This document shows positions 1 to 32,400 of a stretch of DNA of 64,000 nt, one piece after another. A program made the position numbers and the translations under genes. The number at the start of each line of letters is the position of its first letter. Positions within the stretch are counted from its first letter, which is position 1. The notes under the pieces are model-generated. The model was not told the origin of the DNA. It worked only from the letters and a program-made list of their open reading frames with translations, and searched no databases. This stretch comes from Alphaproteobacteria bacterium (GTDB taxonomy: Bacteria > Pseudomonadota > Alphaproteobacteria > UBA7879), in assembly GCA_965178295.1 (NCBI GenBank), contig CBCXTT010000003.1, forward strand, positions 24,114 to 88,113. Reading direction: 5' to 3'.

Positions 1-1283
1 GTTTGAAGATATGTTTTGATCTCATCGCCAGTCATAAAACTGCCAATCTTGTCGCGCATAATACACTTAATATAGTGCGCAAACCTAGACGCTGCAAGCA
101 TATAGGTGAGTCGAGCAGAAATATTGGCATTAGAATTTGCCTCAGCCGTATTGTATATCTTCGGCTTTTGCGTTGTTTGTGCACCAAAGAACGCCGCTTT
201 GTCTGTTGCCTTTTCGTGACAGAGCGCGATAAACCCGAGATCACTTAACTCTTTTTCACGACGGTCCGTAATCGCGATTTCAGTTGGACATTTAAGGGCA
301 ATATCGCCATCTGTTGTGTGGAAAGTATAAACCGGTAGATCTTCAACCAAGCCACCGCCTTCAACACCACGAATCGCTGCAGTCCATCCAAACTCGAAGA
401 ATGCATTGGTAATACGTTGTCCTAACATGTAGCATGCGTTTGTCCATGTGAACGTGTTTTCCGTAGCGCCGTCAACAGTCTCTGTGTAAGCTAGACCTTC
501 AACCGGGTTGGTATCTGGACCGTATGGCTCACGAATCAAAACCCGTGGTAGCGTCATGATCATATAGCGAGAATCTTCTGTCTCACGGAAAGAGTTCCAC
601 TTTATTTTATCAAGTGAGTCAAACAAACTTGCAAGATCTCGTGGTTTCCCAAGATCTGTGAAGGCCTTCAAGTTAAACATGGAAGGATCTGGCGCCGTGA
701 TCATGGGAGCGTGTGCCGCTGCCGCTACGTTGGACAACTTTGAAACAATCTCCATGTCTGCAGGTGTCGGCTTAAAGTAGTAATCGGCAAGCAAACAAGA
801 ATAAGGGTGCCCACCAAACGTACCATACTCTTCTTCATATATGTGCTTAAAGAGTGTGCTTTGGTCAAATTCAACTGCTTTTTCAAGGTCGTCAGCAATT
901 TCTTGCTTGGAGGCGTTGAACAGACGAATTTTAAGCTCGGTACCGGTTTCTGTGTTCATTACGAGATAGTTAAGCCCGCGCCACGATCCTTCAAGTGCCC
1001 GGAATTTATCATGATGCAGTATTTCATCTAGTTGTTGGCCCAAAAGATTATCAATTTCTTGAATTTTTTGATTTATAAATGCAACAGCATCATTGCTCAC
1101 AACCCCACCTTGTGTATTCAAGACCTCTTGTACGAACGTGGAAACCAGATCTTTTGCGTACACTTCTTGAGATGGATCATGGACCAAGTTTCCTTGGGTT
1201 AAGATTGTGTCTAAAATTCCACCCGTTGGTGCAGCAGCCCCACCTTTTGCAGGTGTAGTTGGTGTCTGTGTTTGATCAGCCAT
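1..1283 (-). CDS. tssC: Type VI secretion sheath large subunit TssC/VipB, N-terminal ~427 aa; the gene runs off the left edge of the window
   Basis: Manual reverse-complement translation from ATG (complement of 1281-1283) gives MADQTQTPTT...LPRVLIREPYGPD...GGLVEDLPVYTFHT...ARLTYMLAASRFAHYIKCIMRDKIGSF, which is diagnostic of the TssC family. No stop in the window explains its absence from the ORF track. Confidence 0.9.
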   Translation of the reverse strand, partial: MADQTQTPTTPAKGGAAAPTGGILDTILTQGNLVHDPSQEVYAKDLVSTFVQEVLNTQGGVVSNDAVAFINQKIQEIDNLLGQQLDEILHHDKFRALEGSWRGLNYLVMNTETGTELKIRLFNASKQEIADDLEKAVEFDQSTLFKHIYEEEYGTFGGHPYSCLLADYYFKPTPADMEIVSKLSNVAAAAHAPMITAPDPSMFNLKAFTDLGKPRDLASLFDSLDKIKWNSFRETEDSRYMIMTLPRVLIREPYGPDTNPVEGLAYTETVDGATENTFTWTNACYMLGQRITNAFFEFGWTAAIRGVEGGGLVEDLPVYTFHTTDGDIALKCPTEIAITDRREKELSDLGFIALCHEKATDKAAFFGAQTTQKPKIYNTAEANSNANISARLTYMLAASRFAHYIKCIMRDKIGSFMTGDEIKTYLQ

Positions 1284-1310
1284 TATTTTTCTCCCTTGAA
1301 CCCTTAAGTC

Positions 1311-1876
1311 TTATGATTTTTTAGGTGGTGACGATGGTTTTGCATCCCCACCTGCTGCAGCACTACTTCCTGCTGGTGCAGCCCCAATATTAAGGGACTT
1401 CTTCAATTGATTTTGCGTGTCTGTGTTGGACAGCACATCTGTAAGTAACGTGTCCAAAGTATCGTTTCCATCTAATTTTGTCATCAAATCATTGAGCTGT
1501 GTGCGCATCTGGTAGAGCTTATTCATTGCAGGGATTTTCTTGATCACGTTTATAGGATCAAAATCATCAATGCTTTGGAATTCGAGCAACAAATTAAGTT
1601 GCGTATCGTCATCTGTTAATTTGTTGTCCACTTTGAATGCGAGGCGTGGCCGTTGTTTTGCCATAATAACATTAAAATTATCACGATCAATTTCAGCAAA
1701 TTTACGTTTTTTTACGGAGTCCATCGGGTTGTCAGGATCGCGATCCCCTGAAAGGTCTGAAATGACACCTACGACAAAGGGTAATTCTTTCATTTCAATT
1801 GCATCACCAATCTCTACATCATAAGTGATGTGTACACGTGGTGGACGGACTTTGTCCAGTAAGTGTTGAGTCTCCA
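1311..1876 (-). CDS. tssB: Type VI secretion sheath small subunit TssB/VipA
   Basis: The ORF track gives 1311..1898 from a GTG. The family-typical start METQHLLDKVRPPRVHITYDVEIGDAIEMKELPFVVGVISDLSG is at the ATG (complement of 1874-1876), preceded by AGGGAG. It lies immediately upstream of tssC as expected. The C-terminus carries an extra Ala/Gly/Ser/Pro-rich tail. Confidence 0.85.
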
Positions 1877-2174
1877 TTTTGATAACTCCCTGTTGCACAC
1901 TTGTTATTAACTTAACTTAACTTAAAACAAGGATGGCATGTTTTTTTTTACTTGTCAAAGGGGGAAGTGGAAGATTTTTTTATAAAAGGTAGGGATAACA
2001 GATAGAACGCTACAGCTATTGTTTAAAATACATATATTCCAAATAATTACATTTGCTCTATTAGGGAAACATATATGCAAAAAAGTATGCTGTGCGTTCT
2101 TCTATCCTTTTCATTTTTAACCTACCGGGTTACAATAGCATGTTGACCAATATATAGCTTGATGAGAGACCGAG

Positions 2175-2837
2175 ATGGGCATACGTTATCCAGAATTTGT
2201 AGAGAATCCAGAAAATCGCTGTCCAGTGATTTTGTTACTTGATACATCCGCATCCATGGCCGGTGATCCTATAATGGCGTTAAATGCAGGGCTTGCAAAT
2301 TTTAAATTTGATGTCGAACACGATGAATTAGCGCTGCTGAGGGTAGAGGTTGCAATTATAACGTTTGGGACAGAGGTGTCTATACTGCAAGATTTTACCA
2401 CGATTGATAACTTTACAGCACCCCAGTTGGACGCCGAGGGTAAAACACCCCTCGGCCACGCTTTGAAAACAGGGCTGGCGCTACTTGAGAAGCGCAAAAA
2501 AATCTATCGTGAGGTGGGTGTGCAGTATTATAGGCCATGGATATTTTTGATTACAGACGGCGCGCCCACAGACGTATGGGAGCAAGCTGCAACCAATATT
2601 CATCAAGCTGAAGCAGAGAATAAACTGAGTTTTTTTACGATTGCTGTTGAGGGTGCGGATATGGAGATATTGCAGCAGGTGGCACCACCGTCACGCCCAC
2701 CGTTTACGCTTCGAGATCTGGCCTTTGATGCCTTGTTTCGCTGGCTATCGGCATCGGTTCGACGTGTTTCTACGGGGACAGTTGGGGGTGATATGGTGGC
2801 CTTGCCAGCAGTTTCAAGCTGGGCTGTGGCACGCTGA
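2175..2837 (+). CDS. Free-standing von Willebrand factor A (vWA) domain protein, TerY-like, cytoplasmic
   Basis: MIDAS motif LLLDTSASM (DxSxS) plus downstream ITFGT and LITDG elements. No TM or signal peptide. First gene of a plus-strand cluster divergent from tssB. Confidence 0.8.
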   Translation: MGIRYPEFVENPENRCPVILLLDTSASMAGDPIMALNAGLANFKFDVEHDELALLRVEVAIITFGTEVSILQDFTTIDNFTAPQLDAEGKTPLGHALKTGLALLEKRKKIYREVGVQYYRPWIFLITDGAPTDVWEQAATNIHQAEAENKLSFFTIAVEGADMEILQQVAPPSRPPFTLRDLAFDALFRWLSASVRRVSTGTVGGDMVALPAVSSWAVAR

Positions 2838-2851
2838 ACGGAGATCTAGTC

Positions 2852-3568
2852 GTGTGGTATATTGGGCATAGTGTGTCGGGAAAGAAAAGAGCACCAGGCA
2901 CTTGTCAAGATGTGTTAAGAGTCATGACCTGTGACCAACAAGTGGTTGCGGTATTATCTGACGGCGCAGGGAGCGCGGCACATGGTGGATTGGGTGCAAA
3001 AGTTGTAGTGCAGGCGGCTTTCTCATTCCTTCTAGGCCAAAAAATGCCAGGCCTACCATTGTGTGAGATGGCCGATGACTTGATTGCGCATGTCCGACAG
3101 ATCTTAATGGAAAACGCACGCAGTGTTCAAGTGCCAATATATGCACTTGATGCAACAATCCTCGTCCTTGTGGCAAGTCCGTTTGGCTATCAGGTGTTGC
3201 AAGTCGGGGATGGATTTATTGTGATTCAAAGTCAGGGAGAGATTGAGCGCATTGGAGCACCGCAAAAGGGTGAATATGCTAATGAGACCGTTTTTATTAC
3301 AGAAGATGGTGCGCAACCTGCGCTTTATGATAGTAAAGTGCCCGTACACTACTGGGCAATATCTAGCGATGGTCTGGAGCCAGTTGCAATTGAGGCAAGC
3401 GCTGGAACACCCCATGCGGCTTTCTTTCGACCGTTTTGGGAGTATTTAGACACAACGCCCGATATTGAGGAGGCAAACCAGGAGTTGCATAGATTTTTAA
3501 CATCCAGCCCTCTTCAGTCACGGATCCACGATGATGTATCTCTAGCGATAGGACATTGGCATGCATAA
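2852..3568 (+). CDS. PP2C-family Ser/Thr protein phosphatase (PppA/TagG-like)
   Basis: AVLSDGAGSAAHGGLGAKVV and VGDGFIV motifs typical of bacterial PP2C (SpoIIE-like) phosphatases. GTG start 15 nt after the vWA stop. The 3' end overlaps the next gene by 8 nt. Confidence 0.8.
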   Translation: MWYIGHSVSGKKRAPGTCQDVLRVMTCDQQVVAVLSDGAGSAAHGGLGAKVVVQAAFSFLLGQKMPGLPLCEMADDLIAHVRQILMENARSVQVPIYALDATILVLVASPFGYQVLQVGDGFIVIQSQGEIERIGAPQKGEYANETVFITEDGAQPALYDSKVPVHYWAISSDGLEPVAIEASAGTPHAAFFRPFWEYLDTTPDIEEANQELHRFLTSSPLQSRIHDDVSLAIGHWHA

Positions 3569-6353
3569 GGTATATAAAGCATCGGGTAGTGCTATTGTGC
3601 TCAAGGCAATTCTTGCGCGTGGAGGCGAAGGAGAAATTTGGCAGACGGATAACCCAGACGTTGTAACAAAGATATATCATGCGCAAGAGGCGATGCCGCT
3701 GGAGAAACTGGAGACCATGATTGCATCACCCCCCCATGATCCAACAATGGAGGCTCATCATGTCTCGATCTCATGGCCGCAGGAAGTGATATATGATGTG
3801 AATCAAGTGCCCATTGGTTTTTTGATGCCACGTGTGTCTGGCTCTCTAACGCTCAGCAACATTTACAACCCTAAGTTGCGACGGAACAAGGCGCCTGGGT
3901 TTAATTTTTATTACCTGCATACAGCGGCCCATAATATTGCGGCGATTATGGATTCTCTGCATGCACGTGGATATGTTCTGGGCGATGTTACGACAGAAAA
4001 CTTTCTTGTAAATGATCGGGCTTTGTGCGCCCTAAGCGATACTGATTCTATGCAAGTTCCGCATGGTAATAAAGTCTTTCGGTGTACAGTGGGATCCGAA
4101 GGCTTTACCCCACCAGAGCTTATCGGACAAGATTTTTATGCAATTGATCGAACGGCATATCACGACCGCTTTGGTTTGGCTATTCTTATACATCTTCTGC
4201 TTTTGGGCAGACATCCCTTTACGGGAACATGGCCTGCAGGGGAGGAACCCCTGTCTCTGGATCAGGCGATTAAAAATGGAATATGGCCTTATGCTACGGG
4301 AAAGAGACTGCAACCATCCATGCTTTCTGTTTCGTTAGATGTGATAGCGCCTCCGTTAAAAGCAGCATTCTTGAGCGCATTTAATGGAGAACCGGAATTG
4401 CGACCGACAGCGGCTGATTGGAAAAAGGTTCTGAGTGCTGCACGGGATGATTTGAGCGCTTGCGCGAAAAATAGCAATCATTATTACGATCACCATTTGA
4501 ATACATGCCCTTGGTGCGCGAGAGCGGAGGAAATGGGCCTTGATATTTATTCTGCTGTTTCAAATGACGTCATTGAGCACAAGGTGCGCTTTAACAAAGC
4601 TGTAAAAACAGACGATCAACGCTTGATGACACAATTATGGCAAGCGCATGAAACACTTCGTGCAGATGCTGCGTATCTGAATTTACGCGGGAGAATGCAA
4701 AAAATTGATAGAGATGTTCGGCTTTTGGATCGATTTAAAGCAGCTTGTCAGGAAGGCGTAGACGATGCAGCGCTGTTCCAGATGATTGCAGATAATCCTC
4801 GTCTTGAGACGCTCTCTGCATTTCTCCATGAAAAAATAAATGGGCAATCATTGGCTGTATTTTTTCAACAGCTTGATGCTCGCCGGAAGGCAATCGTGCG
4901 TGCTCAAGATGCAATTCGCCTAGCTGATCAATATTTTTCAGCAGTCTCTGCAACGCCGGCTCATGAGCAAGCCATCATTGATACTTCTAGGGCGTTAGAA
5001 GATATTCTGGAGACGCAAGGGCGTGCTGTTCCAGGTAATATGAGCGCGCGCTGGGCTATAGCTAAACAGCGCTTAGAATCGTGGAGAATATTTCAGCATG
5101 CACTGGATAAAAATGATTTCACGCTGCATAAAACATGGGTCGTACACGCAGAAAAACTCAAAGGTTTTCTGTTTCCAGATGACGTTCGCATGCACTTAGA
5201 GCAGGTGCAAAAACAAGATAAAATTCATGCAATATTTATGTCTCAGATTCGCAAGCAACCTTATGAAGATGCAGCTTTGATTGCGCTATGGGCCCAATAT
5301 CCCGCATTTCAAAAGACAATCTTTGCAAAAGAAAAGGTGTTTCGCGATAGATCTATTGAAGATTTTGTGTCGGATGCACAGAAACGACAGTTTCTGCTGC
5401 CTCTTTTAGATCACGCTTATGCGACATCTGATGTACACGGTATTTTGAATGCCTGGGATAAAAATGTGTGCGGGTATCATCCAGACTTCAAAAAATTTAA
5501 AAGCTATGCAGAAAAGTCTTTTGATGCTCAAAAGCGCTGGCATAAAGTACGGCGCTACATCTTAGAAGATGATCATGTGCAGATTGTGACGTTGTGGCAT
5601 GATAGTTTTACTACTCAGGCTATGCGAGAAGGATTGGGGCATAAGGTGCGTAATAGCTTTCGCCATCAAGAAACGCGCCGTTCCTCTTTTTCGTCTATGT
5701 ATTTTCCAAGAATGCGATTGCTTGAAAATTATATAGATGTATTGTTTCCCTGGCCTGTTTTGATCGATAGAACAGAAAAACGTGTGCGCACATCCTATGT
5801 TGTGGGCGTGGCTCAATCAACGTATGCAACCCCAGATCTAGAGAGGTGCAAGAGTGCGCTGAATATGCGTTATATATCGGCGGATAAATGTGGAGAAATT
5901 GGCCGATTAATATTACCTAGAACAATGCCAAAACCCCATATATTTATATGGGCGGCAGATTTTACAGCAGGGGGGGTGAGGCCTATAGGTTCTCACTTAT
6001 ATGTAACACACAATCAGAACTTGCCAACGATATCATATGATATTTTCGTTCAATCCTTTTGGAAAAGGGGCCGTACAACCATTGGCGTGCATATAGATGT
6101 AAATCAGGATATGCATTTACCATCGTTAGACGTTGTTGCAACGCATGGTCGCTTCCCTATTTTTCAGGATCCAGAAGCCATTGTTCTTGCTACTCTGCCA
6201 CCGTGTTGTTTAAAGATGGGGGGGCGTCACAAGATTATGATTTCCTCGAAACATCCGATCGAACGTGATATGATATTTCGCCTACAGTCACAGGAGAAAT
6301 TTTTCATGGACAACGTGACATTCGTTTACAATAGGCCACAGAAATATGCATAA
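3561..6353 (+). CDS. Divergent Hanks-type Ser/Thr protein kinase (PpkA/TagE-like) with ~600-aa C-terminal region of unknown function
   Basis: Recognisable kinase subdomains in the N-terminal ~330 aa: GGEGEIW (G-loop), VTKIY (Lys), HARGYVLGDVTTENFLV (catalytic loop D...N), LSDTDS (DFG-like), GFTPPEL (APE-like), DRFGLAILIHLLLLG. Residues ~330-930 are helical with a CPWC pair and no family I can assign. No TM segment. Overlaps the PP2C stop in an ATGCATAA arrangement. Confidence 0.75.
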   Translation: MHKVYKASGSAIVLKAILARGGEGEIWQTDNPDVVTKIYHAQEAMPLEKLETMIASPPHDPTMEAHHVSISWPQEVIYDVNQVPIGFLMPRVSGSLTLSNIYNPKLRRNKAPGFNFYYLHTAAHNIAAIMDSLHARGYVLGDVTTENFLVNDRALCALSDTDSMQVPHGNKVFRCTVGSEGFTPPELIGQDFYAIDRTAYHDRFGLAILIHLLLLGRHPFTGTWPAGEEPLSLDQAIKNGIWPYATGKRLQPSMLSVSLDVIAPPLKAAFLSAFNGEPELRPTAADWKKVLSAARDDLSACAKNSNHYYDHHLNTCPWCARAEEMGLDIYSAVSNDVIEHKVRFNKAVKTDDQRLMTQLWQAHETLRADAAYLNLRGRMQKIDRDVRLLDRFKAACQEGVDDAALFQMIADNPRLETLSAFLHEKINGQSLAVFFQQLDARRKAIVRAQDAIRLADQYFSAVSATPAHEQAIIDTSRALEDILETQGRAVPGNMSARWAIAKQRLESWRIFQHALDKNDFTLHKTWVVHAEKLKGFLFPDDVRMHLEQVQKQDKIHAIFMSQIRKQPYEDAALIALWAQYPAFQKTIFAKEKVFRDRSIEDFVSDAQKRQFLLPLLDHAYATSDVHGILNAWDKNVCGYHPDFKKFKSYAEKSFDAQKRWHKVRRYILEDDHVQIVTLWHDSFTTQAMREGLGHKVRNSFRHQETRRSSFSSMYFPRMRLLENYIDVLFPWPVLIDRTEKRVRTSYVVGVAQSTYATPDLERCKSALNMRYISADKCGEIGRLILPRTMPKPHIFIWAADFTAGGVRPIGSHLYVTHNQNLPTISYDIFVQSFWKRGRTTIGVHIDVNQDMHLPSLDVVATHGRFPIFQDPEAIVLATLPPCCLKMGGRHKIMISSKHPIERDMIFRLQSQEKFFMDNVTFVYNRPQKYA

Positions 6354-7362
6354 TATATTTTCTAAATCATTGTGTCCGTACTGCTACAAGTCTTTTTATC
6401 CGTGGGAAAAAATGTATCGATGTCAGGCCCTGACGCAGGTATGCAAGCCTGTTGAAGATACAGTATATCATCGTCATTTTGGTACAAAAAAAATCATGGG
6501 GCATGTTGTGACACCTTCTATTCGAGGGTTTTCTGATTTGATGCGCTTTTTAAGCAAGGAGTTGGCAACACGTTGTACGAGCTGTGCATCTTTGGTGACA
6601 CAACCAATTTGTCCAGGGTGTCATGGGCATTTGCCTAAGCGACAAGGTAAGACACCTGTCGTACCTATTTTGCTTGCAGGAGCCAGTATTAGCGCTCTTA
6701 AAACGTATCGTTCAGCGCTTCTGCATCAACTCCAGGCGGCTGAAGGGCATATAGCTGGTATGATTGTTGAAGATTTAGCTGAGGGTGACGGCATTATTAT
6801 CTCTTTTGAGATTGCTCAAGGGCGGCGGACCAGGCTACCATGTTTTATCTCCACATTTCCGATGGTAACATGGAAGGACTTGGCGCGTCTCCCTCGTGCG
6901 TTTGATATAAACAAGTTATCTGGTGTGATCGCGGTATTGTCTGGAAAGGCGCTAGGTGATATAGGTCATCAGTATGCGATGACAAGCCTAAAGGCGTTAC
7001 TGGATGTGGCGGATGAGGAAAGAAGCTTTTGGCAGAAAACGCCACTTGCTATTGCCCTAGATGACATGGAAAAGTGGCAGGCTTGTGTTCCTGGCGGGAG
7101 TGTGCTGTGGGGGCGAGGTCAACATACCAAAGGGTATGACGTACAAGATGGATCCAGCGTTTCTGCTGAAGTGCGTGCCTGTTTTGGCTATTGGGCTGGG
7201 TTAAATGTACTGCAGTTTTTAAAGAAAAATTTTAAAACTTATAGTTTTTTTGGTATTTCAAAAGAGCGATATAGTACGGGCCGTGTTGCGCCTTATGCTC
7301 GTGTTGAGGATCCTTATTTTTGGCTGCTCTATCGGCAAAAAATACTTGAAAAAATGCTTTAG
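6346..7362 (+). CDS. Cys-rich double zinc-ribbon protein of unknown function (338 aa)
   Basis: N-terminus has CPYC...(~10 aa)...C...C and then C..C...CPGC, i.e. two zinc-ribbon-like Cys4 clusters in the first ~95 aa. The remainder is unassignable. Start overlaps the kinase stop by 8 nt (ATGCATAA), implying translational coupling. Confidence 0.6.
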   Translation: MHNIFSKSLCPYCYKSFYPWEKMYRCQALTQVCKPVEDTVYHRHFGTKKIMGHVVTPSIRGFSDLMRFLSKELATRCTSCASLVTQPICPGCHGHLPKRQGKTPVVPILLAGASISALKTYRSALLHQLQAAEGHIAGMIVEDLAEGDGIIISFEIAQGRRTRLPCFISTFPMVTWKDLARLPRAFDINKLSGVIAVLSGKALGDIGHQYAMTSLKALLDVADEERSFWQKTPLAIALDDMEKWQACVPGGSVLWGRGQHTKGYDVQDGSSVSAEVRACFGYWAGLNVLQFLKKNFKTYSFFGISKERYSTGRVAPYARVEDPYFWLLYRQKILEKML

Positions 7363-7457
7363 GCATTTTCAATGTAGTATGATGTTGTTACAATATCCTG
7401 GACTGGGCTATCTTCAGGCAGGGAAAGCGATGCAATATTGGAAGAGCGTATAGGAAT

Positions 7458-8303
7458 ATGATTGTTGGTCTGGTCGTCTTGACAGGCATTATTGTGGCTC
7501 TATCAGTATCTCTCTGGCTTAAACAGGATCACCATCAAGCTGCGCTCACACCGTATACAGTGTATTTTTCTGAGACCGTATCAGGCCTGCCTATTGGCAG
7601 TGCTGTAAAATATCGCGGCATTCGCGTGGGGTCAATTTCTGATATTCATATTCCTAGGAAAAATTCAGAATCCATTGCTGTAAGTGTGATGATTGATAAA
7701 AACACACCTGTTGGAATGGGGAGAAGAGCTTCTTTGCAAATGGCAGGCATTACAGGCGAGTCATATCTGGAGATTAGCGGCGCTGTCCATGATGACGGGC
7801 CTGTATCGCCTCCTGCTGGTGAGTCTGTTCCTGTTATTCCATCTGAAGAATCTTCTATTCAAAAAATTGTATCGACAACCCCTGCGCTTCTAACTCATGC
7901 AGATCAGCTGATTCAGAGAACCGCTACAGTAGTCTCGGTCGAAAACCGTGCAAAATTCTCAAAAATACTTGAAAATGTGCAAGATATTACACAGGCACTT
8001 TCAGATAGTCGGAGTGATTATAGCAATCTGATGTCAAATTTTCGTGTGATCAGTGAAGAAATGCGTACAACACTTCAGTCAATAAATGGCGCTATGGAGA
8101 GCCTAAATTTTGCAGGGAAAAATATTGATCATTTTGTTCAGGATGTGCGCCCCCATATTGCCAGTTTTGCAGAGAATGAGTTGCCTAACTTTGTCCTTTT
8201 AACAGATAAGCTTATGGCAACATTAGGTGATCTTAGGGACGTTTTGAGAACGATCGAGCCTAAGATAGAGTATTTTACCAGATGCGGGCGAAAGGAGTTA
8301 TAA
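7458..8303 (+). CDS. MCE/MlaD-family protein (single MCE domain, N-terminal TM anchor, C-terminal helical region)
   Basis: N-terminal TM MIVGLVVLTGIIVALSVSLWL. MCE domain signature YTVYFSETVSGLPIGSAVKYRGIRVGSISDI...AGITGESYLEISGA. Confidence 0.8.
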   Translation: MIVGLVVLTGIIVALSVSLWLKQDHHQAALTPYTVYFSETVSGLPIGSAVKYRGIRVGSISDIHIPRKNSESIAVSVMIDKNTPVGMGRRASLQMAGITGESYLEISGAVHDDGPVSPPAGESVPVIPSEESSIQKIVSTTPALLTHADQLIQRTATVVSVENRAKFSKILENVQDITQALSDSRSDYSNLMSNFRVISEEMRTTLQSINGAMESLNFAGKNIDHFVQDVRPHIASFAENELPNFVLLTDKLMATLGDLRDVLRTIEPKIEYFTRCGRKEL

Positions 8304-8309
8304 GCTTAT

Positions 8310-8924
8310 ATGAGATGGGTTTTACTATGCTGCCTACCCTTTTTCTTGACTGGGTGCGTTCATATCTTTCCGGAGCAGCCCTCTGGGGTGAAAACAATCG
8401 TCATTCGAGCGGAAGGATGTTCAGCGGTTGAAGGACCAGAGGTAGAATCGCAGTTAATTGTTGAACGTCCTACCACAAGCTCGGAGTTGGATAAAAATAT
8501 CATTGCTGTTATGGGTGAGACAGATACACTTCTGTATATTTCGGATACAGTTTTGTCCGATGACTTGACCGAGGTAATTGAGCGCGCGACAATTGAGGCT
8601 TTTTTGGAGAGTAAAAAAATAAAAGGTGTTGGAGGAAATGGGAGCGGTATTAGCGCAGATTATATTTTGCTGAGCGATATCGACTCTTTTGGTCTATACG
8701 TACCACATAAAGGCGCAACACCAGAAGCACGCTTTGAGATGGTAGGCCAGTTGGTGGATGTTAAAACGCGGAAAGTTGTTTCTAAAAAACGCTTCAGTGC
8801 GATGGTTCCCGTACCAGCAAAGACAGTATCTGTAGTTGCAAACGCACTGAATGATGTTGTTTCGCACGTGCTCAGGGATGTTTTGACCTGGGTGCTTTCT
8901 GCAGGGCATGTGGCGCTAAAATAA
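8310..8924 (+). CDS. Lipoprotein, likely ABC-transport auxiliary component (DUF330/PqiC/YmbA-like)
   Basis: Signal peptide with lipobox FFLTGC. ~200 aa, immediately downstream of the MlaD-like gene, as is typical for DUF330 partners of MCE proteins. Confidence 0.6.
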   Translation: MRWVLLCCLPFFLTGCVHIFPEQPSGVKTIVIRAEGCSAVEGPEVESQLIVERPTTSSELDKNIIAVMGETDTLLYISDTVLSDDLTEVIERATIEAFLESKKIKGVGGNGSGISADYILLSDIDSFGLYVPHKGATPEARFEMVGQLVDVKTRKVVSKKRFSAMVPVPAKTVSVVANALNDVVSHVLRDVLTWVLSAGHVALK

Positions 8925-10586: not shown

Positions 10587-11261
10587 ATGAATGATCTTCA
10601 TAAAAAAAAGCAGCATATTGCATCGCAAAAAGCTTTGTCGCGCAAGCGCTCTGTTCATTTAGCGTCAGTTTTTATTACTTTGAGCGCTGTCTTTGTTGCT
10701 ATTGTTGTATCTTGGCCGCATATTGTTCGTTTCTTTGCAGAGACGGATGATGCCGCTGCCCTCAATGCTTTCGAGCAAAATGTTATTACAGCGCAGTCTA
10801 AGGCTTTATCGCGTGTGAAACCGAGCGAAGTGCATGGAGCAAAGTTTTTTCATTCTGGGCCAGATAAAACGCTTATTACAATAAAATCTGAGCGAGTTGC
10901 GCGTCCCGAAGATGATGGGTCTGTGCATTTAGAACATGTGTCGGGGAGTGCGCAGCTTACGGATGGGAGTTCTGTTTTTATCACGGCAGATAAAGGGGAA
11001 GTGGTGCCGGATACAGCAGGCCACTTCTCGCTTGAGGGCAGTGTCAATATTATGCAAGAGCAGGGCCATGAATTGCTCACAGAGATGGCCAATATTGACT
11101 TTCCGTCACAAAAAATTGTCGTCCCTAATCAAATTGACATCATCTCGCCGATGGGAAAAATGAAAGGAGAAAGTGGTGTGATTGATTATAAAAATCATAC
11201 ATTGGCAATGGCTGGAAAATCTAAGATCATATTTAATAGAGAGAAAGGGAGCGGTCATTGA
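10587..11261 (+). CDS. lptC: LPS export protein LptC (membrane-anchored)
   Basis: 224 aa with an N-terminal TM anchor (LASVFITLSAVFVAIVV). Immediately upstream of lptA with a 4-nt overlap, consistent with the lptCAB arrangement. Confidence 0.7.
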   Translation: MNDLHKKKQHIASQKALSRKRSVHLASVFITLSAVFVAIVVSWPHIVRFFAETDDAAALNAFEQNVITAQSKALSRVKPSEVHGAKFFHSGPDKTLITIKSERVARPEDDGSVHLEHVSGSAQLTDGSSVFITADKGEVVPDTAGHFSLEGSVNIMQEQGHELLTEMANIDFPSQKIVVPNQIDIISPMGKMKGESGVIDYKNHTLAMAGKSKIIFNREKGSGH

Positions 11262-12067
11262 GCAAGATAATAGTGTTTGCATTTCTCTCTATGCTCTCAT
11301 GCTGTGTGGCATGTGAAACGATTGTCACATGTGACAATGGCCTCACAGTGTATGAAGCAGAAAATTATTTTACAGCTCACGGTAATGTGTCTGTAGAGCA
11401 TGAGCATATTAAAGCACGTGCGGATAGGGGGCGGGGCGTTGTCAGGCAGAATAAGAAAATGCGGACGGTAGAGACATTGAGTCTTGATGGGCACTTAGAG
11501 GTTGAATCGAACGGCCTCCATATTGCAGCAGACAAAGGTATATATGACCTACTACACAATAGGTTGACGCTGCACGGTAATGTGATTCGTGTTAACGCTC
11601 AGGATATAAGGGCGGAGACTCATGGGGAGGTGGTATATTTACCCAATAGATCTCTATTGAAAGGTCGGCAGCGTACAATATTGAAAAAAGATGACGCAAT
11701 TTTTTCTGGTGATAAATTTGATGTTGTATTTTTAAAGCCGGACTCTCGTGTGCAGAAACAAGCCATAGAAGATGTATCCTACATATATGTTCGCGGTGAT
11801 TTGACATTTTTTTGTGGTGAGGCTATTATGTTTGCGTCTCATGCTTTATACGATGTTCCATCAGACAAGATTTATGCGTTTGGTGAGGTGCGAGTGAGTC
11901 TAGAGACACACCAACTGGAGGCCCCGTTTGTTTTAATGGATCGATCCCAAGGGACAGTTGAGTTAGGCGACACTATTCCACAGGGTATGAAGGCACAATA
12001 TCCATATGTAAGCGCGTTGCATGCAGATTCCATGCATGAGCACGATGGTATTCGGGTGTTATTTTAA
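11258..12067 (+). CDS. lptA: LPS export periplasmic protein LptA (OstA-like)
   Basis: Signal peptide. OstA-like beta-jellyroll repeats (GNV motifs: AHGNVSVEH, LHGNVIRVN, AFGEVRV). Position between lptC and lptB. Confidence 0.8.
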   Translation: MSKIIVFAFLSMLSCCVACETIVTCDNGLTVYEAENYFTAHGNVSVEHEHIKARADRGRGVVRQNKKMRTVETLSLDGHLEVESNGLHIAADKGIYDLLHNRLTLHGNVIRVNAQDIRAETHGEVVYLPNRSLLKGRQRTILKKDDAIFSGDKFDVVFLKPDSRVQKQAIEDVSYIYVRGDLTFFCGEAIMFASHALYDVPSDKIYAFGEVRVSLETHQLEAPFVLMDRSQGTVELGDTIPQGMKAQYPYVSALHADSMHEHDGIRVLF

Positions 12068-12077
12068 ATAGAGGGCT

Positions 12078-12815
12078 ATGTTGATGATCAATAATGCACT
12101 GGCTTTAGAGCATATTGGGAAGTCATTTAAAGATCGGCCAGTGCTGCGTGATGTGAGCCTGTGCGTGCAACCAGGCGAAGTTGTAGGGCTCTTGGGACCG
12201 AATGGGGCGGGTAAAACAACCTGTTTCTATATCATGTCGGGTTTGATAAAACCGGACTATGGAAAAATAATTCTTTACGGTGAAGATATTTCGCGCCTGC
12301 CACTTTACAGACGATCAAGGCTCGGTATTGGGTATTTGCCTCAAGAAACATCTGTTTTTCGAGGACTGACGGTTGAGGATAATCTTCAGGCTGTTTTAGA
12401 GATTATGGAACCAGTACCAGAGAAGCGTGAATCGATGCTAGAAGATCTGTTGGGTGAGTTTTCCATCAGTCACTTGCGCCATACATCCTCTATTGCATTG
12501 TCTGGTGGAGAGCGGCGACGGCTAGAAATTGCTCGGGCATTGGCTCTTCAGCCCAAGTTTATTATGCTTGACGAGCCCTTAGCGGGCATTGATCCTATTG
12601 CAATCGAGGATATTCGTGAGTTAATCGGGCGCTTAAAGATTCATGATATTGGAGTATTAATTACAGATCATAATGTGCGAGATACGTTAAGTGTTGTGGA
12701 TCGCGCATACATTTTAAATGACGGCGTTGTTCTGGCTGAAGGCTCTCCGCAATCTATTGTGGGACACAAAGAGGTACGGCGTGTCTATTTGGGCGAGAGC
12801 TTTACCTCTTTTTAA
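12078..12815 (+). CDS. lptB: LPS export ABC transporter ATPase LptB
   Basis: Walker A GPNGAGKTT, ABC signature LSGGERRRLEIARAL, Walker B IMLDEP. Family-typical length (245 aa). Confidence 0.9.
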   Translation: MLMINNALALEHIGKSFKDRPVLRDVSLCVQPGEVVGLLGPNGAGKTTCFYIMSGLIKPDYGKIILYGEDISRLPLYRRSRLGIGYLPQETSVFRGLTVEDNLQAVLEIMEPVPEKRESMLEDLLGEFSISHLRHTSSIALSGGERRRLEIARALALQPKFIMLDEPLAGIDPIAIEDIRELIGRLKIHDIGVLITDHNVRDTLSVVDRAYILNDGVVLAEGSPQSIVGHKEVRRVYLGESFTSF

Positions 12816-26511: not shown

Positions 26512-26939
26512 CCGCTCCCTTACACGCGCGACTATCAGCACTTCTTTTGCTTATGGAAAAATTAGATGCGTGATCTCAATGGATTGCTGTGATGATTTCT
26601 ATCCCCTCCCTGTTTTTTTTGACAAGCATGGGCAGTCGAAGGATATGGAGAATATACGCCTTTTATCCTTTTTGATTCATTCTTATGCTCGCACAGATGG
26701 AGATCCATGTTCTACATAGCTCGCGCGCATATGATTTCTCATGACTTGCATTTTCTATGCATATAAAAAGAGTATGTGAGTTGGCTATTTGATGTATTGA
26801 TCTCTACTAAACAATCCCTCAAAAAACCGGCTGTGGTGCGTGAGGAATAACGCAGAGGCCAATATTTGGGAGTGAATTGATCCTGATCGTTAATAGAGTG
26901 TGTGTGACATCAATATGTGGGATGCTCATAATTGAGCAC

Positions 26940-29030
26940 TTTTAGTGTATCGACGTTTATTGAGTTGATACGGGGGGTAGTAAGTTAAGAATAATAGCTA
27001 TAACGCCTATTAGGAAGAGCGAGAAAAATTCTTCTCCTGTTATGTGTGATGGTCATGGCCCTGTTTCTTTACCGGTTTTGAAAAGGCAACATCCATATAT
27101 TCTTCGCGCTCTTTTTGAACCCTTTTGTCTTCCAGGCGCACGTTTTGGAACTGGAGTGGTATTTTATTGCATCCTCTGCATCGTTTAATCCTGTTGCTGG
27201 CGCGATATAGAGGTACCTGCTCTTATAGAATTCAAAGCATGCGACTCATTATCCAAACACCTATTTTGTATAGGCGCGTGACGTATATCATGGACCGGAC
27301 TGTTTTCAATTGTACTGCTGCAATTTGAGCCACAACCCCTTTCTTGCAGAGCGATATAAAATAGCCATAGTCTCCTTGGTCACTGGATTAGGAATGTTAA
27401 GTTGTACGCTGCTCAAGGAATTAAAATGAAAAGGTCATCATAGCCACATGGCGCATCAAAGACCTTTATCGCTGAATCTACAAATGCATAAACCGCAACT
27501 TACCTATCTACTTACCTACCTATTATGTATTTTTACACCGTATGACATGGGGGTGTGTATCGTTCATTCGGGATTTTGGTGTTTTGTTGGTTGTGCGTGC
27601 TACTGGAGGATGTAATGCTCATAAATATGCTGCATACAATATTTTGGCGCTCTTGTGCTACAGTAGACTGCACAGGACATGATATTGTGCATACACTTAC
27701 CAAACAATCTATCAAACAACAGATTTAGTTCTTTATTGAGCATTGCGCCCTTGATTTAAGTATGGATAAAGATTGCGTATGTCGCGGTTGGGTAGTACGT
27801 GGAATCTTGAAGACGGTATCTTGCAATCCATTGCGTTCAAGAACACCCAGTCGTTCTAAAAACATGGGGGAGTATGATGTGGTATGGACGCGCCTGTTTA
27901 TACTGTATATACATGCAAGGGAGATGGAAATGCTATGCTTTTGCGGTCAGGACTTTTGCTTCAGGGCTGCGAATGTATGCAATTTCACCTATCTGGAATT
28001 TATGGGTTTGGATGGTTGATTTCAGAAGGTGCGCGTGGCAAGGAAGAGGGTATACCTTCACCAACTCTTAAGGCGAACGGTTTATGGCGTGATATGGACC
28101 ATCTGCCAACGGTCTAGCATATCGAGATGTCATGAGTCGTGCTATGGCAATTGAAATGCAAGAAGGACGAGATTTTTGGCCTGGAAAAGATCATATCCTG
28201 GTTACATCGTGCGTATCTCTCCCCAACGTTGTTGGAAGAGCAGGTTACCTGGTATTTCTGAAAAAGCTAAAATTTTGCAGGCGCTGCTGTAGCGCGTGAA
28301 CCAATCCCTTGTGTTGCCAATATTGTATTATAACATGTGGGGTGTGCCAATAAACTCTCATGGAGAGAAGTGCTGAATCCAGAAAAATTAGATATAGAGG
28401 CATTGGTTCCGAGTTTACTGGAAATTGGAGAAACTGCATGTGTGCCTATTCATGGAGCGAATCGCGTGGGTGTAAACTCTTGAGTTGATCTTGTGGTTTT
28501 GGGCGTGCCGTGGGCTATGGCTGCAAAGGCAATCCACATGACATCTCTATGGGGGTGTCACAACACCCAGAGTTGACCCCCGATGCAATGGTTAACACGC
28601 CATACACAGACTAGATATAATGTGGTACTCAAAGGGTGCAGAAAGTGTTCATGATATCCGCTTTTCCATGCACAAGGTTATGCCGCAGAATTGTGCTGTT
28701 TTTAGAGATGCGTATATGCTCCAGAAAGAGTGCGAAGAACTTGCGAAAGTCCTTGCACGTATGAAACGCGTGCACGGAATACGGATCTGGTGGAAGTCCT
28801 CGATCTTGAGAATTTGATGGTGCAGTCGTTGGTGACGATACATAGCGCGCTTGGAAATTCGTGGCGTTCATGCCCACGCAGATTGCAGAGTAGCGATGAC
28901 GAGCATTAGCTAACGCATACATAACATGGATTGATGCGGCAGGAAACGTAAGTCGACCCGTGCCATTCAAAAAGGCCGGTACTTTCCAGGATTTGAGCGC
29001 ACGATAAACATTATAAAAGGTGCATATATA
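26940..29030 (+). pseudogene. sdhA: Succinate dehydrogenase flavoprotein subunit (sdhA) relic, broken by frameshifts and stops
   Basis: SdhA-like pieces spread across frames: VDTGGSKLRIIAI (cf. VGAGGAGLRAA), LPVLKRQHPY (cf. LSKVFPTRSHT), ELEWY (cf. NWEWHMY), DCTGHDIVHTL (cf. DRTGHALLHTL), RDVMSRAMAIEMQEGRDFWPGKDHI (cf. RDVVSRAMTIEIREGRG..KDHI), ILYYNMWGVP (cf. TVHYNMGGIP). Only ORFs <=152 aa are present. Confidence 0.65.
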
Positions 29031-29032
29031 AG

Positions 29033-32294: not shown

Positions 32295-32323
32295 TTGACG
32301 AACAGTCGATGACAGCATAATAT
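32295..32323 (+). promoter_or_regulatory. Putative sigma70 promoter of the str/ribosomal operon (TTGACG-17 nt-TAATAT)
   Basis: TTGACG at 32295-32300, a 17-nt spacer, TAATAT at 32318-32323. ~80 nt upstream of the rpsL ATG (RBS AAGGA at 32388-32392). Confidence 0.5.
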
Positions 32324-32400
32324 GCAGCTCACAACTAATGTTATTGAGAGCTCCTGTCCCGTGTGGGATAAGAACTTATTTGGGTAAAAAGGACCGGATT

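What the first reader, a model, noticed from the sequence alone, without database searches (positions are those of the whole stretch)
7458..8924. Orphan MlaD-like MCE protein and DUF330-like lipoprotein without permease or ATPase
MCE proteins normally sit in operons with an MlaE/YrbE permease and an MlaF ATPase, or with PqiA. Here the single-MCE protein and its lipoprotein partner sit instead at the end of the kinase/vWA cluster, 95 bp after the ZnR gene. No ABC components are within 8 kb on either side. Either the ABC genes were displaced or lost, or the envelope-spanning MCE pair is functionally coupled to the signalling or T6SS module.
Basis: partly seen in the sequence, partly recalled or inferred. 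Interest (0 to 1): 0.55.

Follow-up and report, generated by a model that had tools for sequence, protein, structure and literature searches.

The report
Stranded, clipped half of a lipid transporter
These two genes are the periplasm-spanning half (MCE needle plus outer-membrane lipoprotein ring) of a known four-part lipid transporter, separated from its ABC motor genes in an eroding endosymbiont-type genome; they sit beside the kinase/T6SS cluster only in this narrow lineage, so the finding is mostly ordinary.

Summary
ORF 7458-8303 is a single-MCE protein (Pfam MlaD 6.8e-14; P. aeruginosa PA3213 1.3e-25). ORF 8310-8924 is a PqiC-like DUF330 lipoprotein (PF03886 just above cut-off; PA3214 2.3e-11). 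No MlaE or MlaF was detected anywhere in the 64-kb window, and no ORF scanned in 1-20 kb matched PqiA. One detail is wrong: an ABC ATPase lies 3.15 kb downstream, but it is LptB.

The pair matches MpcD/MpcA of the Brucella Mpc system and PA3213/PA3214. In both, the ABC genes sit immediately upstream.

Comparative data argue against coupling to the kinase/T6SS module. vWA-PP2C-kinase modules, most followed by the ZnR gene, recur in about 15 alphaproteobacterial loci, eight of them beside T6SS genes. The MCE pair follows that module only here and in the closest relative.

The pair is under purifying selection and shows no rate acceleration. So it has worked for a long time without ABC genes in cis.

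New here: this genome's MCE gene carries two terminal frameshifts. They remove the conserved N-terminal stub and the conserved C-terminal tail. By position, that tail corresponds to the lipoprotein-docking peptide of PA3213 and PqiB.

Verdict: a new member of a known kind, in an unusual context and possibly starting to decay. Low to moderate interest.

The parts
7458..8303 (+). Single-MCE protein of the MpcD/PA3213 type, 281 aa: N-terminal TM helix, MCE beta-barrel, then about 140 residues of C-terminal helices (the 'needle').
   Evidence: Pfam MlaD 6.8e-14. PDB 13hr_I (PA3213) 1.3e-25 over residues 2-217. AF2 model: helix 2-26, strands 30-129 with pLDDT 70-84, helices 133-156, 161-212 and 216-274. 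2225 library relatives at E<=1e-10. 57% identical to the L001 orthologue, pN 0.28 against pS 0.73.
7438..7461 (+). Remnant of the ancestral start of the MCE gene. TTG-GAA-GAG-CGT-ATA-GGA-ATA-TGA reads LEERIGI*, out of frame with the body because of a 1-nt deletion near 7455-7457. Its TGA overlaps the present ATG (ATGA).
   Evidence: DNA alignment with L001. Translation. L171 starts at the homologous TTG. Library relatives align query residue 2 to their residue 9.
8272..8313 (+). Ancestral C-terminal tail of the MCE protein, ILPDAGERSYKLI*, still encoded but out of frame after a 2-nt deletion near 8274-8278. Its TGA (8311-8313) overlaps the lipoprotein ATG, as in the orthologues.
   Evidence: DNA alignment with L001. 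Three-frame translation. Orthologue and relative tails end in R-[ST]-Y-K-L. The C-terminal peptide of PA3213 and PqiB is required for lipoprotein binding (PMC13631591).
8310..8924 (+). PqiC-like (DUF330, ABC_trans_aux) outer-membrane lipoprotein of the MpcA/PA3214 type, 204 aa, lipobox LTGC with Cys16.
   Evidence: PF03886 3.1e-6, 27.3 bits against cut-off 26. PDB PA3214 2.3e-11, XCC0632 7.7e-11. 69% identical to the L001 orthologue and 66.5% to L171. 28% identical (7e-22) to the lipoprotein of the complete L066 operon.
7363..7457 (+). 95-nt spacer between the ZnR gene and the MCE ORF. No terminator-like site. One weak promoter-like match at 7366-7394.
   Evidence: number of matches no higher than in shuffles. 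Sequence.
2175..7362 (+). Context, not part of the MCE system: cytoplasmic quartet of vWA (2175-2837), PP2C phosphatase (2852-3568), 930-aa Ser/Thr kinase (3561-6353) and 338-aa zinc-ribbon protein (6346-7362).
   Evidence: Pfam. No TM segments. Quartet conserved in many loci without the MCE pair.
3..1898 (-). Context: T6SS sheath genes tssC (partial, 3-1283) and tssB (1311-1898), divergent from the quartet.
   Evidence: VipA 2.2e-51. TssC tblastn 78% identity.
10587..12815 (+). Context: LptC-like gene, LptA-like gene and lptB. LptB is the only ABC ATPase near the pair and belongs to LPS export, not to an MCE system.
   Evidence: TIGR04406 1.8e-105, 351.5 bits against cut-off 240.

Best explanation
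The two genes are the MpcD/MpcA (PA3213/PA3214) half of an Mla-Pqi chimeric MCE lipid transporter. This half consists of an inner-membrane-anchored MCE ring with a long helical needle, capped at the outer membrane by a PqiC-like lipoprotein ring. The known systems are MCE hexamers with lipoprotein octamers; that stoichiometry is inferred here, not shown.

In the common ancestor of this genome and its closest relatives, the pair became separated from the mlaE/mlaF-type ABC genes that normally precede it. It ended up directly downstream of the T6SS-linked vWA-PP2C-kinase-ZnR quartet. That adjacency is a lineage-specific juxtaposition, not a component of the signalling or T6SS module.

The pair has been kept by purifying selection since that split. 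It has therefore been doing something useful, most simply lipid transport between the two membranes driven by an MlaE/MlaF-type module encoded elsewhere. That last step is inferred and could not be tested.

In this particular genome, which is visibly eroding, the MCE gene has recently acquired two terminal frameshifts. They remove its conserved cytoplasmic N-terminal stub and its conserved C-terminal tail. The tail corresponds by position to the lipoprotein-docking peptide of PA3213 and PqiB. The needle-to-ring connection is therefore probably weakened or lost here. This is either a first step towards loss of the system or a tolerated truncation.
For: Family identity
- MCE domain and PA3213 match.
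- PqiC-like lipoprotein.
- TM helix, barrel and helices in the AF2 model.
- Full-length homology to the MCE and lipoprotein of complete MlaE(STAS)-MlaF-MCE-lipoprotein operons in L066 and L002.
- This is the architecture of Brucella MpcEFDA (PMC12436622) and PA3211-PA3214 (PMC13631591).

No ABC partner in cis
- No MlaE or MlaF in the window, L001 or L005, even at E<=5.

Not part of the kinase/T6SS module
- vWA-PP2C-kinase modules were found in about 15 distinct loci, most with a ZnR homologue. Eight lie next to tssB/tssC.
- The MCE pair is present only in the window and L001.
- The synteny break lies right after ZnR in the other loci, and right after the lipoprotein in the window and L001.

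Selection
- pN is far below a saturated pS: MCE 0.28 against 0.73, lipoprotein 0.21 against 0.81.
- GC content matches the neighbouring genes.
- Relative-rate tests show no acceleration in the window lineage.
- The pair is intact, with the ATGA overlap, in a third lineage, L171.

Frameshifts
- DNA alignments and translations.
- The out-of-frame tail differs from L001 by five synonymous changes and one non-synonymous change in the ancestral frame (read). The shift is therefore recent.
- The R-[ST]-Y-K-L tail is conserved in the relatives.
- The C-terminal peptide is required for MCE-lipoprotein binding in two homologous systems.

Erosion
- sdhA fragments are spread over three frames at 27645-28534.
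- SdhB-like motifs were read by eye from the six-frame translation at about 29.2-29.9 kb.
- The 5.8 kb around them has no long ORF.
Against: - The rest of the genome could not be searched, so a trans-acting MlaE/MlaF is only inferred.
- The pair has stayed glued to the quartet in two lineages that differ by about 40% in protein sequence while everything downstream was rearranged. It shows no terminator-like site in the 95-nt spacer. Co-transcription and a local functional link therefore remain possible.
- The two indels could be assembly errors. Both lie in short TA-rich runs, and together they sum to -3 nt.
- Both indels fall within the first ~25 and last ~35 nt of the gene. That is the pattern expected if the body is still under selection, so 'decaying' may be too strong.
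- The docking role of this tail rests on its terminal position and its conservation. PA3213's key residues are E309, F310 and P312, a different sequence.
Confidence: 0.55

Rival explanations
1. The pair is a fully intact MpcD/MpcA module. The two indels are assembly artefacts, or the true protein is the 292-aa form. It works normally with MlaE/MlaF genes located elsewhere in the genome. On this view it is an ordinary split operon of the kind common in rearranged endosymbiont genomes.
For: - The body ORF has no internal stop and evolves at the same rate as in L001.
- The head and tail remnants are perfectly readable in one common frame, and the indels sum to -3.
- Repairing them gives 292 aa, exactly the length of P0002.
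- Both sites are TA-rich.
Against: - The ORFs in the ribosomal-protein/EF-G/EF-Tu block and beyond (about 32-64 kb) have the lengths expected of intact genes. None looks split by an indel. The assembly's indel error rate therefore appears low, and two errors in one 0.88-kb gene would be improbable (inference).
- The genome does contain genuine multi-frameshift pseudogenes.
Confidence: 0.2
2. In this sub-lineage the MCE needle and lipoprotein ring were recruited as an envelope-spanning accessory of the T6SS-linked kinase module. Possible roles are an envelope or lipid-stress sensor feeding the phosphorylation switch, analogous in logic to TagQRST-PpkA of P. aeruginosa, or a substitute for a missing outer-membrane T6SS part.
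For: - Same strand, a 95-nt gap (55 nt in L001) and no terminator-like site.
- The whole block from tssB/tssC through the quartet to the lipoprotein gene is collinear between the window and L001, although the downstream flanks differ.
- A review states that Holosporineae T6SS lacks some standard envelope components (PMC11909080).
- In L006 an outer-membrane beta-barrel gene follows ZnR instead.
Against: - Only 2 of about 15 homologous vWA-PP2C-kinase loci, and 2 of 8 T6SS-adjacent ones, carry the pair.
- The kinase, vWA, PP2C and ZnR proteins have no TM segment or signal peptide. There is thus no periplasmic part to contact the MCE system.
- Related Holosporales are reported to have TssL, TssM and a TssJ-like gene elsewhere (PMC8163844).
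- The pair is an unremarkable member of a family of thousands of Mpc-type MCE proteins.
- The MCE termini are clipped in this genome.
Confidence: 0.1
3. The pair works as an ABC-independent passive lipid bridge: a TM-anchored MCE hexamer plus outer-membrane ring. It would no longer need any permease or ATPase.
For: - Long-term purifying selection without ABC genes in cis.
- A second pair without mlaEF upstream exists in an unrelated contig, L005.
- The PA3213-PA3214 subcomplex is stable and spans about 230 A even when the ABC part appears to have dissociated (PMC13631591).
Against: - Every characterised MCE system has an inner-membrane partner: MlaFE, YrbE/MceG, PqiA or LetA (PMC13631591 introduction).
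- In Brucella all four mpc genes are needed.
- Absence of a partner has not been shown, because the genome could not be searched.
Confidence: 0.1

Closest known systems
Brucella abortus MpcEFDA (Mla-Pqi chimeric system; PMC12436622)
   Same: - An alphaproteobacterial system.
- The MCE protein is long (MpcD 331 aa, against 281 aa here and 292-298 aa in the orthologues): one MCE domain followed by C-terminal helices.
- It is followed directly by a PqiC-like lipoprotein (MpcA).
- The complete L066 operon, whose MCE and lipoprotein are homologous to the window's, has the diagnostic STAS-MlaE fusion.
   Different: - No mpcE or mpcF next to the pair, or anywhere in 64 kb.
- The pair follows a kinase cluster instead.
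- The MCE termini are frameshifted in this genome.
- Sequence identity to Mpc-type relatives is only about 25-30%.
Pseudomonas aeruginosa PA3211-PA3214 (PA3213 MCE + PA3214 lipoprotein; PDB 13hr/13hs/13hq; PMC13631591)
   Same: - These are the best solved-structure matches for both proteins (1.3e-25 and 2.3e-11).
- Domain order and sizes are the same.
- Hand-reading the HMMER alignment, PA3214 groove residues V76 and V180 align with V67 and V173 of the window lipoprotein.
   Different: - PA3213 docks through its C-terminal peptide. The homologous conserved tail of this subfamily (R-S-Y-K-L) is out of frame in the window gene.
- PA3214 R73 aligns with Ile here (hand-read).
- No ABC genes in cis.
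E. coli PqiABC
   Same: A periplasm-spanning MCE needle plus an octameric DUF330 lipoprotein (PqiC), with no ATPase in the operon.
   Different: - PqiB has three MCE domains and needs PqiA.
- No PqiA-like ORF was seen near the pair.
E. coli MlaFEDB-MlaC-MlaA
   Same: An MCE domain with an N-terminal TM anchor (TIGR04430 partial match 1.4e-12, below cut-off).
   Different: - MlaD is short (183 aa) and has no needle.
- It uses soluble MlaC and MlaA rather than a PqiC-like lipoprotein.
Mycobacterial Mce1-4 / plant TGD systems (from my own knowledge)
   Same: A precedent for MCE components whose ATPase (MceG) or partner genes are encoded elsewhere in the genome and act in trans. The MCE proteins also have long helical needles.
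   Different: - Heterohexamers of six Mce proteins.
- No DUF330 lipoprotein.
- A different envelope.
P. aeruginosa TagQRST-PpkA-PppA-Fha1 threonine-phosphorylation pathway of the H1-T6SS (from my own knowledge)
   Same: Only the logic is shared: envelope proteins, including an outer-membrane lipoprotein, encoded next to a T6SS kinase/phosphatase pair.
   Different: - No sequence relationship was found.
- The kinase here has no TM or periplasmic domain.
- The MCE pair is absent from most homologous clusters.

Membership tests
MCE superfamily (PF02470) | MCE beta-barrel domain | tested here: met
   Pfam 6.8e-14, 52.3 bits against cut-off 25.1. PDB hits to PA3213, LetB, Mce1 and MlaD. Strands 30-129 at pLDDT 70-84.
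MCE superfamily (PF02470) | Inner-membrane anchor (single N-terminal TM helix) | tested here: met
   Hydrophobic window at residues 1-23, Kyte-Doolittle maximum 2.65. Helix 2-26. The conserved 7-8-residue cytoplasmic stub before the helix is missing.
MCE superfamily (PF02470) | Encoded with an inner-membrane partner (MlaE/MlaF, YrbE, PqiA or LetA) | tested here: not met
   No MlaE or MlaF by tblastn in the 64-kb window. No PqiA or MlaE Pfam hit among the ORFs scanned in 1-20 kb.
Mpc / PA3211-PA3214-type four-component system | Long single-MCE protein with a C-terminal helical needle | tested here: met
   Helices 133-274. Alignment to PA3213 over residues 2-217, plus a weak second stretch to residue 269. 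The nearest full-length relatives listed are mostly 280-340 aa.
Mpc / PA3211-PA3214-type four-component system | PqiC-like lipoprotein gene immediately downstream | tested here: met
   The ancestral ATGA stop/start overlap is preserved in the DNA.
Mpc / PA3211-PA3214-type four-component system | STAS-MlaE permease and MlaF ATPase immediately upstream | tested here: not met
   The upstream gene is the ZnR protein. There are no remnants. These genes are present in the homologous operons of L002 and L066.
Mpc / PA3211-PA3214-type four-component system | C-terminal peptide of the MCE protein that docks on the lipoprotein | tested here: not met
   The present ORF ends ...EYFTRCGRKEL. The conserved tail PDAGERSYKLI is encoded out of frame. 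It is conserved in P0002, P0003, P0134, P0135, P0137 and others. Its functional role is taken from PMC13631591. Equating this tail with that docking peptide rests on position and conservation, not on sequence.
PqiC-like / DUF330 lipoproteins (PF03886) | ABC_trans_aux domain over its full length | tested here: met
   27.3 bits against cut-off 26, profile positions 19-160 of 161. phmmer against PA3214 and XCC0632, about 1e-11. The L001 orthologue also hits PF03886.
PqiC-like / DUF330 lipoproteins (PF03886) | Lipoprotein signal peptide with a lipobox cysteine | tested here: met
   MRWVLLCCLPFFLTGC, with Cys16 and Val at +2. Read directly from the sequence.
PqiC-like / DUF330 lipoproteins (PF03886) | Octameric ring around the MCE needle | not testable with these tools
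   No multimer prediction is available. Known for PqiC, PA3214 and XCC0632 (PMC10897342 title; PMC13631591).
T6SS accessory / threonine-phosphorylation sensor module (TagQRST-like) | Consistent co-occurrence with the T6SS or kinase genes across relatives | tested here: not met
   The pair is present in 2 of about 15 vWA-PP2C-kinase loci, and in 2 of 8 T6SS-adjacent ones.

The most novel reading that the evidence does not exclude
In the small lineage formed by this genome and L001, an Mpc-type MCE needle and its PqiC-like ring may have been cut loose from their ABC motor. They would have been taken over as an envelope-spanning accessory, co-transcribed with the T6SS-linked vWA-PP2C-kinase-ZnR switch. 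A possible role is reporting outer-membrane lipid damage to a non-standard Holosporales T6SS.
Probability: 0.08. Interest if true: 0.7.

Novelty: new member of a known kind. Interest (0 to 1): 0.28.

Why it matters
As found, it matters little for mechanism. It is one more Mpc/PA3213-14-type MCE pair.

It is a clean natural example of the periplasmic half of such a system being kept by selection for a long time without its ABC genes in cis. That bears on whether MCE needles can share or dispense with a dedicated ABC motor.

The two terminal frameshifts also give a natural allele that lacks the conserved C-terminal tail, which could be compared with a repaired version.

The more interesting biology is next door. 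A vWA-PP2C-kinase-ZnR quartet is repeatedly placed head to head with tssB in Holosporales-like genomes.

Tried and rejected
- **Locating the source genome.** The look-up of encoding contigs found no record for the window's MCE protein. Genome contigs found no relative of the MCE protein. The listing of cluster members gave no names or accessions. The genome-wide mlaE/mlaF/pqiA search could therefore not be done.
- **Metagenome scan with the three-sequence MCE alignment.** Nothing found.
- **Homologue search with the ZnR protein.** Only the L001 orthologue was found. More distant ZnR homologues came only from tblastn on fetched loci.
- **PADLOC.** No defence-system match at E<=0.01 for the vWA or PP2C proteins, and only weak generic kinase-domain hits for the kinase. 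I had recalled a TerY-P-like triad but found no support for membership.
- **Aligning the C-terminal 56 residues to PA3213 through the PDB search.** Only chance hits. The tail comparison therefore rests on the orthologues and library relatives.
- **Ralstonia T6SS paper.** It was returned for 'DUF330' only because of prefix matching, and is irrelevant.
- **Rfam.** Only one tRNA in the window, so the ORF-poor 26.5-32.3 kb stretch is not an rRNA operon.
- **Pfam on the raw translation of the ORF-poor stretch.** Replaced by tblastn with L009 SdhA.
- **'MCE pair replaces the T6SS membrane complex'.** Considered and set aside. Related Holosporales are reported to encode TssL and TssM elsewhere, and the pair is missing from most T6SS-adjacent loci.
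- **'Kinase cluster inserted between mlaFE and the MCE gene'.** Rejected. Upstream of the quartet lie T6SS or unrelated genes in every locus examined.
- **L066.** The complete operon sits 4.9 kb upstream of a vWA-PP2C-kinase cluster. It keeps its MCE and lipoprotein attached, and five unrelated genes on the other strand lie between.
- **Promoter and terminator scans.** Hit counts were no higher than in shuffles, so they are uninformative.
Full report
**1. What is there**

ORF 7458-8303 (+, 281 aa) and ORF 8310-8924 (+, 204 aa) exist as described.

The first ORF is an MCE protein.
- It matches Pfam MlaD at 6.8e-14 over residues 32-107 and the MCE family model TIGR00996 at 9.4e-16.
- Among solved structures it matches the 312-aa 'Mce/MlaD domain-containing protein' of entry 13hr at 1.3e-25 over residues 2-217. 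Weaker hits are to LetB, Mce1, MlaD and PqiB.
- It has one hydrophobic helix at the very N-terminus.
- An AlphaFold2 model from a six-sequence alignment gives a TM helix at 2-26 and a beta-barrel at 30-129 (pLDDT 70-84). Three long helices follow, at 133-156, 161-212 and 216-274. Their confidence is low, as expected for a monomer of a hexameric needle.

The second ORF is a PqiC-like lipoprotein.
- It passes the Pfam cut-off for ABC_trans_aux/DUF330 narrowly (27.3 against 26 bits), but over almost the whole profile.
- It matches the solved lipoproteins of entries 13hr, 13hs and 13hq (2.3e-11) and XCC0632 (7.7e-11) over nearly its full length.
- It starts with a lipoprotein signal, MRWVLLCCLPFFLTG-C16.

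**2. Surroundings**

- Upstream, on the same strand, lie a vWA protein, a PP2C phosphatase, a 930-aa Ser/Thr kinase and a 338-aa zinc-ribbon protein with no Pfam family. None has a TM segment.
- Divergent from these are tssB and tssC.
- Downstream lie a convergent rhodanese-type gene, then LptC-like and LptA-like genes and an ABC ATPase at 12078-12815. That ATPase is LptB (TIGR04406 1.8e-105, above its cut-off).
- The statement 'no ABC components within 8 kb' is therefore literally wrong. The substance is right: no MlaE, MlaF or PqiA.
- tblastn with MlaE and MlaF from two complete operons finds nothing in the whole 64-kb window except LptB, even at E<=5.

**3. What family of system the pair comes from**

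- A 27%-identical MCE relative (P0004) sits in a four-gene operon: MlaE, ABC ATPase, MCE, ABC_trans_aux.
- Locus L066, from an uncultured alphaproteobacterium, has the same operon. Its permease carries an N-terminal STAS domain. Its MCE protein is 29% identical to the window's over the full length, and its lipoprotein is 28% identical (7e-22).
- This is the architecture of the Brucella abortus Mpc ('Mla-Pqi chimeric') system. MpcE is a STAS-MlaE fusion, MpcF is the ATPase, MpcD is a 331-aa MCE protein with a long helical C-terminus, and MpcA is a PqiC-like lipoprotein. All four co-purify, and all four are needed for deoxycholate resistance (PMC12436622).
- It is also the architecture of P. aeruginosa PA3211-PA3214. 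Cryo-EM shows an octameric PA3214 ring around the tip of a PA3213 needle, forming a subcomplex about 230 A long.
- In that system the last residues of PA3213 dock in a hydrophobic groove of PA3214. Deleting that C-terminal peptide, or mutating it, abolishes binding in both PA3213-PA3214 and PqiB-PqiC (PMC13631591).
- The window pair is thus the MpcD/MpcA half of such a system.
- An exhaustive HMMER search found 5567 relatives (2225 at E<=1e-10). The listed best hits are mostly 280-340 aa, and the best non-self hits are 38-40% identical. It is an ordinary member of a very large family.

**4. Is it part of the kinase/T6SS module?**

- The closest relative, L001, has the same block. It runs tssF-tssE-hcp-like-hcp-like-tssC-tssB, then divergently vWA-PP2C-kinase-ZnR-MCE-lipoprotein. 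Its protein identities to the window are vWA 83%, TssB 80%, TssC 78%, lipoprotein 69%, kinase 63%, ZnR 59%, MCE 57% and PP2C 52%. It then continues into unrelated genes.
- The kinase has many full-length homologues at 29-38% identity.
- I collected their contexts with the look-up of encoding contigs, a genome scan and a metagenome scan, then screened them with tblastn.
- About 15 distinct loci carry the homologous vWA-PP2C-kinase genes. Where the DNA extends far enough, most have a ZnR homologue (24-31% identity) directly after the kinase. L008, L066 and L093 have none.
- Their record titles point to Holosporales-like Alphaproteobacteria.
- Eight are head to head with tssB/tssC: the window, L001, L006, L007=L012, L011=L091, L014, L096 and L097. 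Others are not: L008, L010, L013=L016=L142, L020, L066 and L093=L094.
- The MCE-lipoprotein pair follows ZnR only in the window and L001.
- In L006 an outer-membrane beta-barrel gene follows instead. In L007, L009 and L010 unrelated genes follow.
- The pair is therefore a lineage-specific addition at the 3' edge of the cluster, not a conserved component.
- Published genome analyses of related Holosporales report tssK-tssL-tssM-tssA at other loci (PMC8163844). A review calls the T6SS of this group 'non-standard' (PMC11909080).
In L066 the complete operon lies 4.9 kb upstream of a vWA-PP2C-kinase cluster. There the MCE and lipoprotein genes stay attached to mlaEF, and five unrelated genes on the other strand lie between.

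**5. Is the pair alive?**

- Between the window and L001, non-synonymous differences are far below saturated synonymous differences. MCE has pN 0.28 against pS 0.73, and the lipoprotein 0.21 against 0.81. These values are similar to the neighbouring genes.
- GC and GC3 match the neighbours, so there is no sign of recent import.
- Relative-rate tests with outgroups show no acceleration in the window lineage for either gene.
- A third lineage (L171; lipoprotein 80.5% identical to L001's) has the pair intact, with the ATGA stop/start overlap.
- Another pair with no mlaEF upstream (the upstream gene is a divergent ribD) exists on the 5.5-kb contig L005.
- The pair has therefore been maintained for a long time without ABC genes in cis.

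**6. New observation: the window's MCE gene is clipped at both ends**

At the 5' end:
- L001 reads TTG GAA GAG CGT GTC GGA TAT ATC ATT GTT GGA (LEERVGYIIVG). L171 starts at the homologous TTG.
- The window reads TTG GAA GAG CGT ATA GGA -AT ATG ATT GTT GGT.
- One base is missing, so the ancestral frame gives LEERIGI and stops at 7459-7461. The ORF restarts at the overlapping ATG at 7458.
- This removes the 7-8-residue stub (consensus M-E-T/E-R-x-x-Y) that nearly all relatives carry. Library hits align query residue 2 to their residue 9.

At the 3' end:
- Two bases are missing near 8274-8278.
- The ORF now ends ...EYFTRCGRKEL.
- The ancestral tail ILPDAGERSYKLI*, whose TGA overlaps the lipoprotein ATG, is still encoded in another frame at 8272-8313.
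- Against L001, that out-of-frame tail shows five synonymous and one non-synonymous codon differences in the ancestral frame (read). The shift is therefore recent.
- The tail motif R-[ST]-Y-K-L, or more broadly G-[YF]-x-x, is conserved across the nearest relatives.
- By position it corresponds to the docking peptide of PA3213 and PqiB. That equivalence is an inference from position and conservation, not from sequence.

How to read this:
- ORF lengths across the 32-64 kb stretch (ribosomal-protein/EF-G/EF-Tu block and beyond) look intact, with nothing obviously split by an indel. Two assembly indels in one 0.88-kb gene would therefore be unlikely (inference).
- The genome does contain real decay. 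sdhA fragments lie in three frames at 27645-28534. SdhB-like motifs, read by eye from the six-frame translation, follow at about 29.2-29.9 kb. The 5.8 kb around them has no long ORF and no rRNA.
- Artefact is not excluded.
- Both indels fall within the first ~25 and last ~35 nt of the gene. That is the pattern expected if the body is still under selection.

**7. Mechanism**

Shown: the family assignments, the domain layout, the absence of ABC genes in cis, the restricted distribution, purifying selection, and the frameshifts.

Inferred from the homologous Mpc and PA3211-14 systems: the MCE protein forms an inner-membrane-anchored hexamer with a helical needle. The lipoprotein forms a ring at the outer membrane around its tip. 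Together they form a lipid conduit across the periplasm.

Inferred without a test: the energy source is an MlaE/MlaF-type module encoded elsewhere. From my own knowledge, there is precedent in mycobacterial MceG and the dispersed plant TGD genes.

In this genome the loss of the tail should weaken or abolish the needle-ring contact.

**8. Verdict**

The 'coupled to signalling/T6SS' branch is not, though it cannot be excluded for this small lineage.
- This is a new member of a known kind in an unusual genomic position, with a possibly decaying MCE allele.
- Interest is low to moderate.

Noticed in passing
window 3-7362; loci L001, L006, L007/L012, L011/L091, L014, L096, L097: A cytoplasmic quartet (vWA, PP2C phosphatase, ~930-aa Ser/Thr kinase, ~340-aa double-zinc-ribbon protein) lies head to head with tssB-tssC-hcp-tssE-tssF-tssG-clpV in eight distinct Holosporales-like loci. 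It occurs without T6SS genes in several others (L008, L010, L013, L020). It looks like a conserved, undescribed post-translational switch associated with this group's T6SS. There were no PADLOC hits for the vWA or PP2C proteins.
   Followed up: partly
window 26512-32337 (sdhA fragments 27645-28534; SdhB-like motifs about 29.2-29.9 kb): A 5.8-kb stretch has no ORF above 152 aa and no rRNA. It contains succinate dehydrogenase remnants. The SdhA pieces are 40-51% identical to L009 SdhA and are spread over three frames. SdhB-like cysteine motifs, read by eye from the translation, are interrupted by stops. The genome is losing its sdh genes, which is typical of endosymbiont-type erosion.
   Followed up: partly
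window 7438-7461: The ancestral TTG start of the MCE gene now heads an 7-codon mini-ORF (LEERIGI*). Its TGA overlaps the current ATG (ATGA), so the clipped MCE ORF could still be translated by termination-reinitiation.
   Followed up: no
L066 131-3619 and 8465-12403: An uncultured alphaproteobacterium has a complete STAS-MlaE / MlaF / MCE / PqiC-like operon 4.9 kb upstream of a vWA-PP2C-kinase cluster with a shorter, 816-aa kinase. Five unrelated genes on the opposite strand lie between them. This is a second case of proximity between an Mpc-type system and this kind of cluster, and is probably coincidental.
   Followed up: partly
L005 2926-4522 (GCA_041309485.1, contig JBFYZN010000136.1): Another MCE plus ABC_trans_aux pair has no mlaEF upstream. 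The upstream gene is a divergent ribD. It is followed by a 343-aa protein with no Pfam family. Stranded MCE-lipoprotein pairs may not be rare.
   Followed up: partly
L006 14021-14743; L014 15356-15886 (- strand): In L006 an outer-membrane beta-barrel gene (OMP_b-brl) directly follows the ZnR gene, where the window has the MCE pair. A homologue lies 1.6 kb downstream, on the opposite strand, in L014.
   Followed up: no
window 3561-4560 (kinase domain); one search hit list, loci L017-L090: The kinase domain (first ~330 residues) is 42-48% identical to kinase domains of many cyanobacterial multidomain proteins (WD40, TPR and FGE-sulfatase fusions). That is higher than the 29-38% full-length identity to its own alphaproteobacterial family beyond the closest relative. 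This suggests a shared or transferred kinase module.
   Followed up: no
L013 and L016; L012 and L014: L013 (labelled Verrucomicrobiales MAG) gave the same match coordinates and statistics as L016 (Holosporaceae bacterium UBA7879) in every search. L012 and L014 carry Holosporales-type T6SS-quartet loci but are labelled Rhizobiaceae / Rhizobium sp. The MAG taxonomic labels are probably unreliable.
   Followed up: no
window 6346-7362: The ZnR protein has two CxxC...CxxC zinc ribbons followed by a ~220-residue domain. A degenerate P-loop-like stretch (LLAGASISALKT) sits at the start of that domain. It has no Pfam, NCBIfam or PADLOC match, and the word-indexed search found only one homologue.
   Followed up: partly
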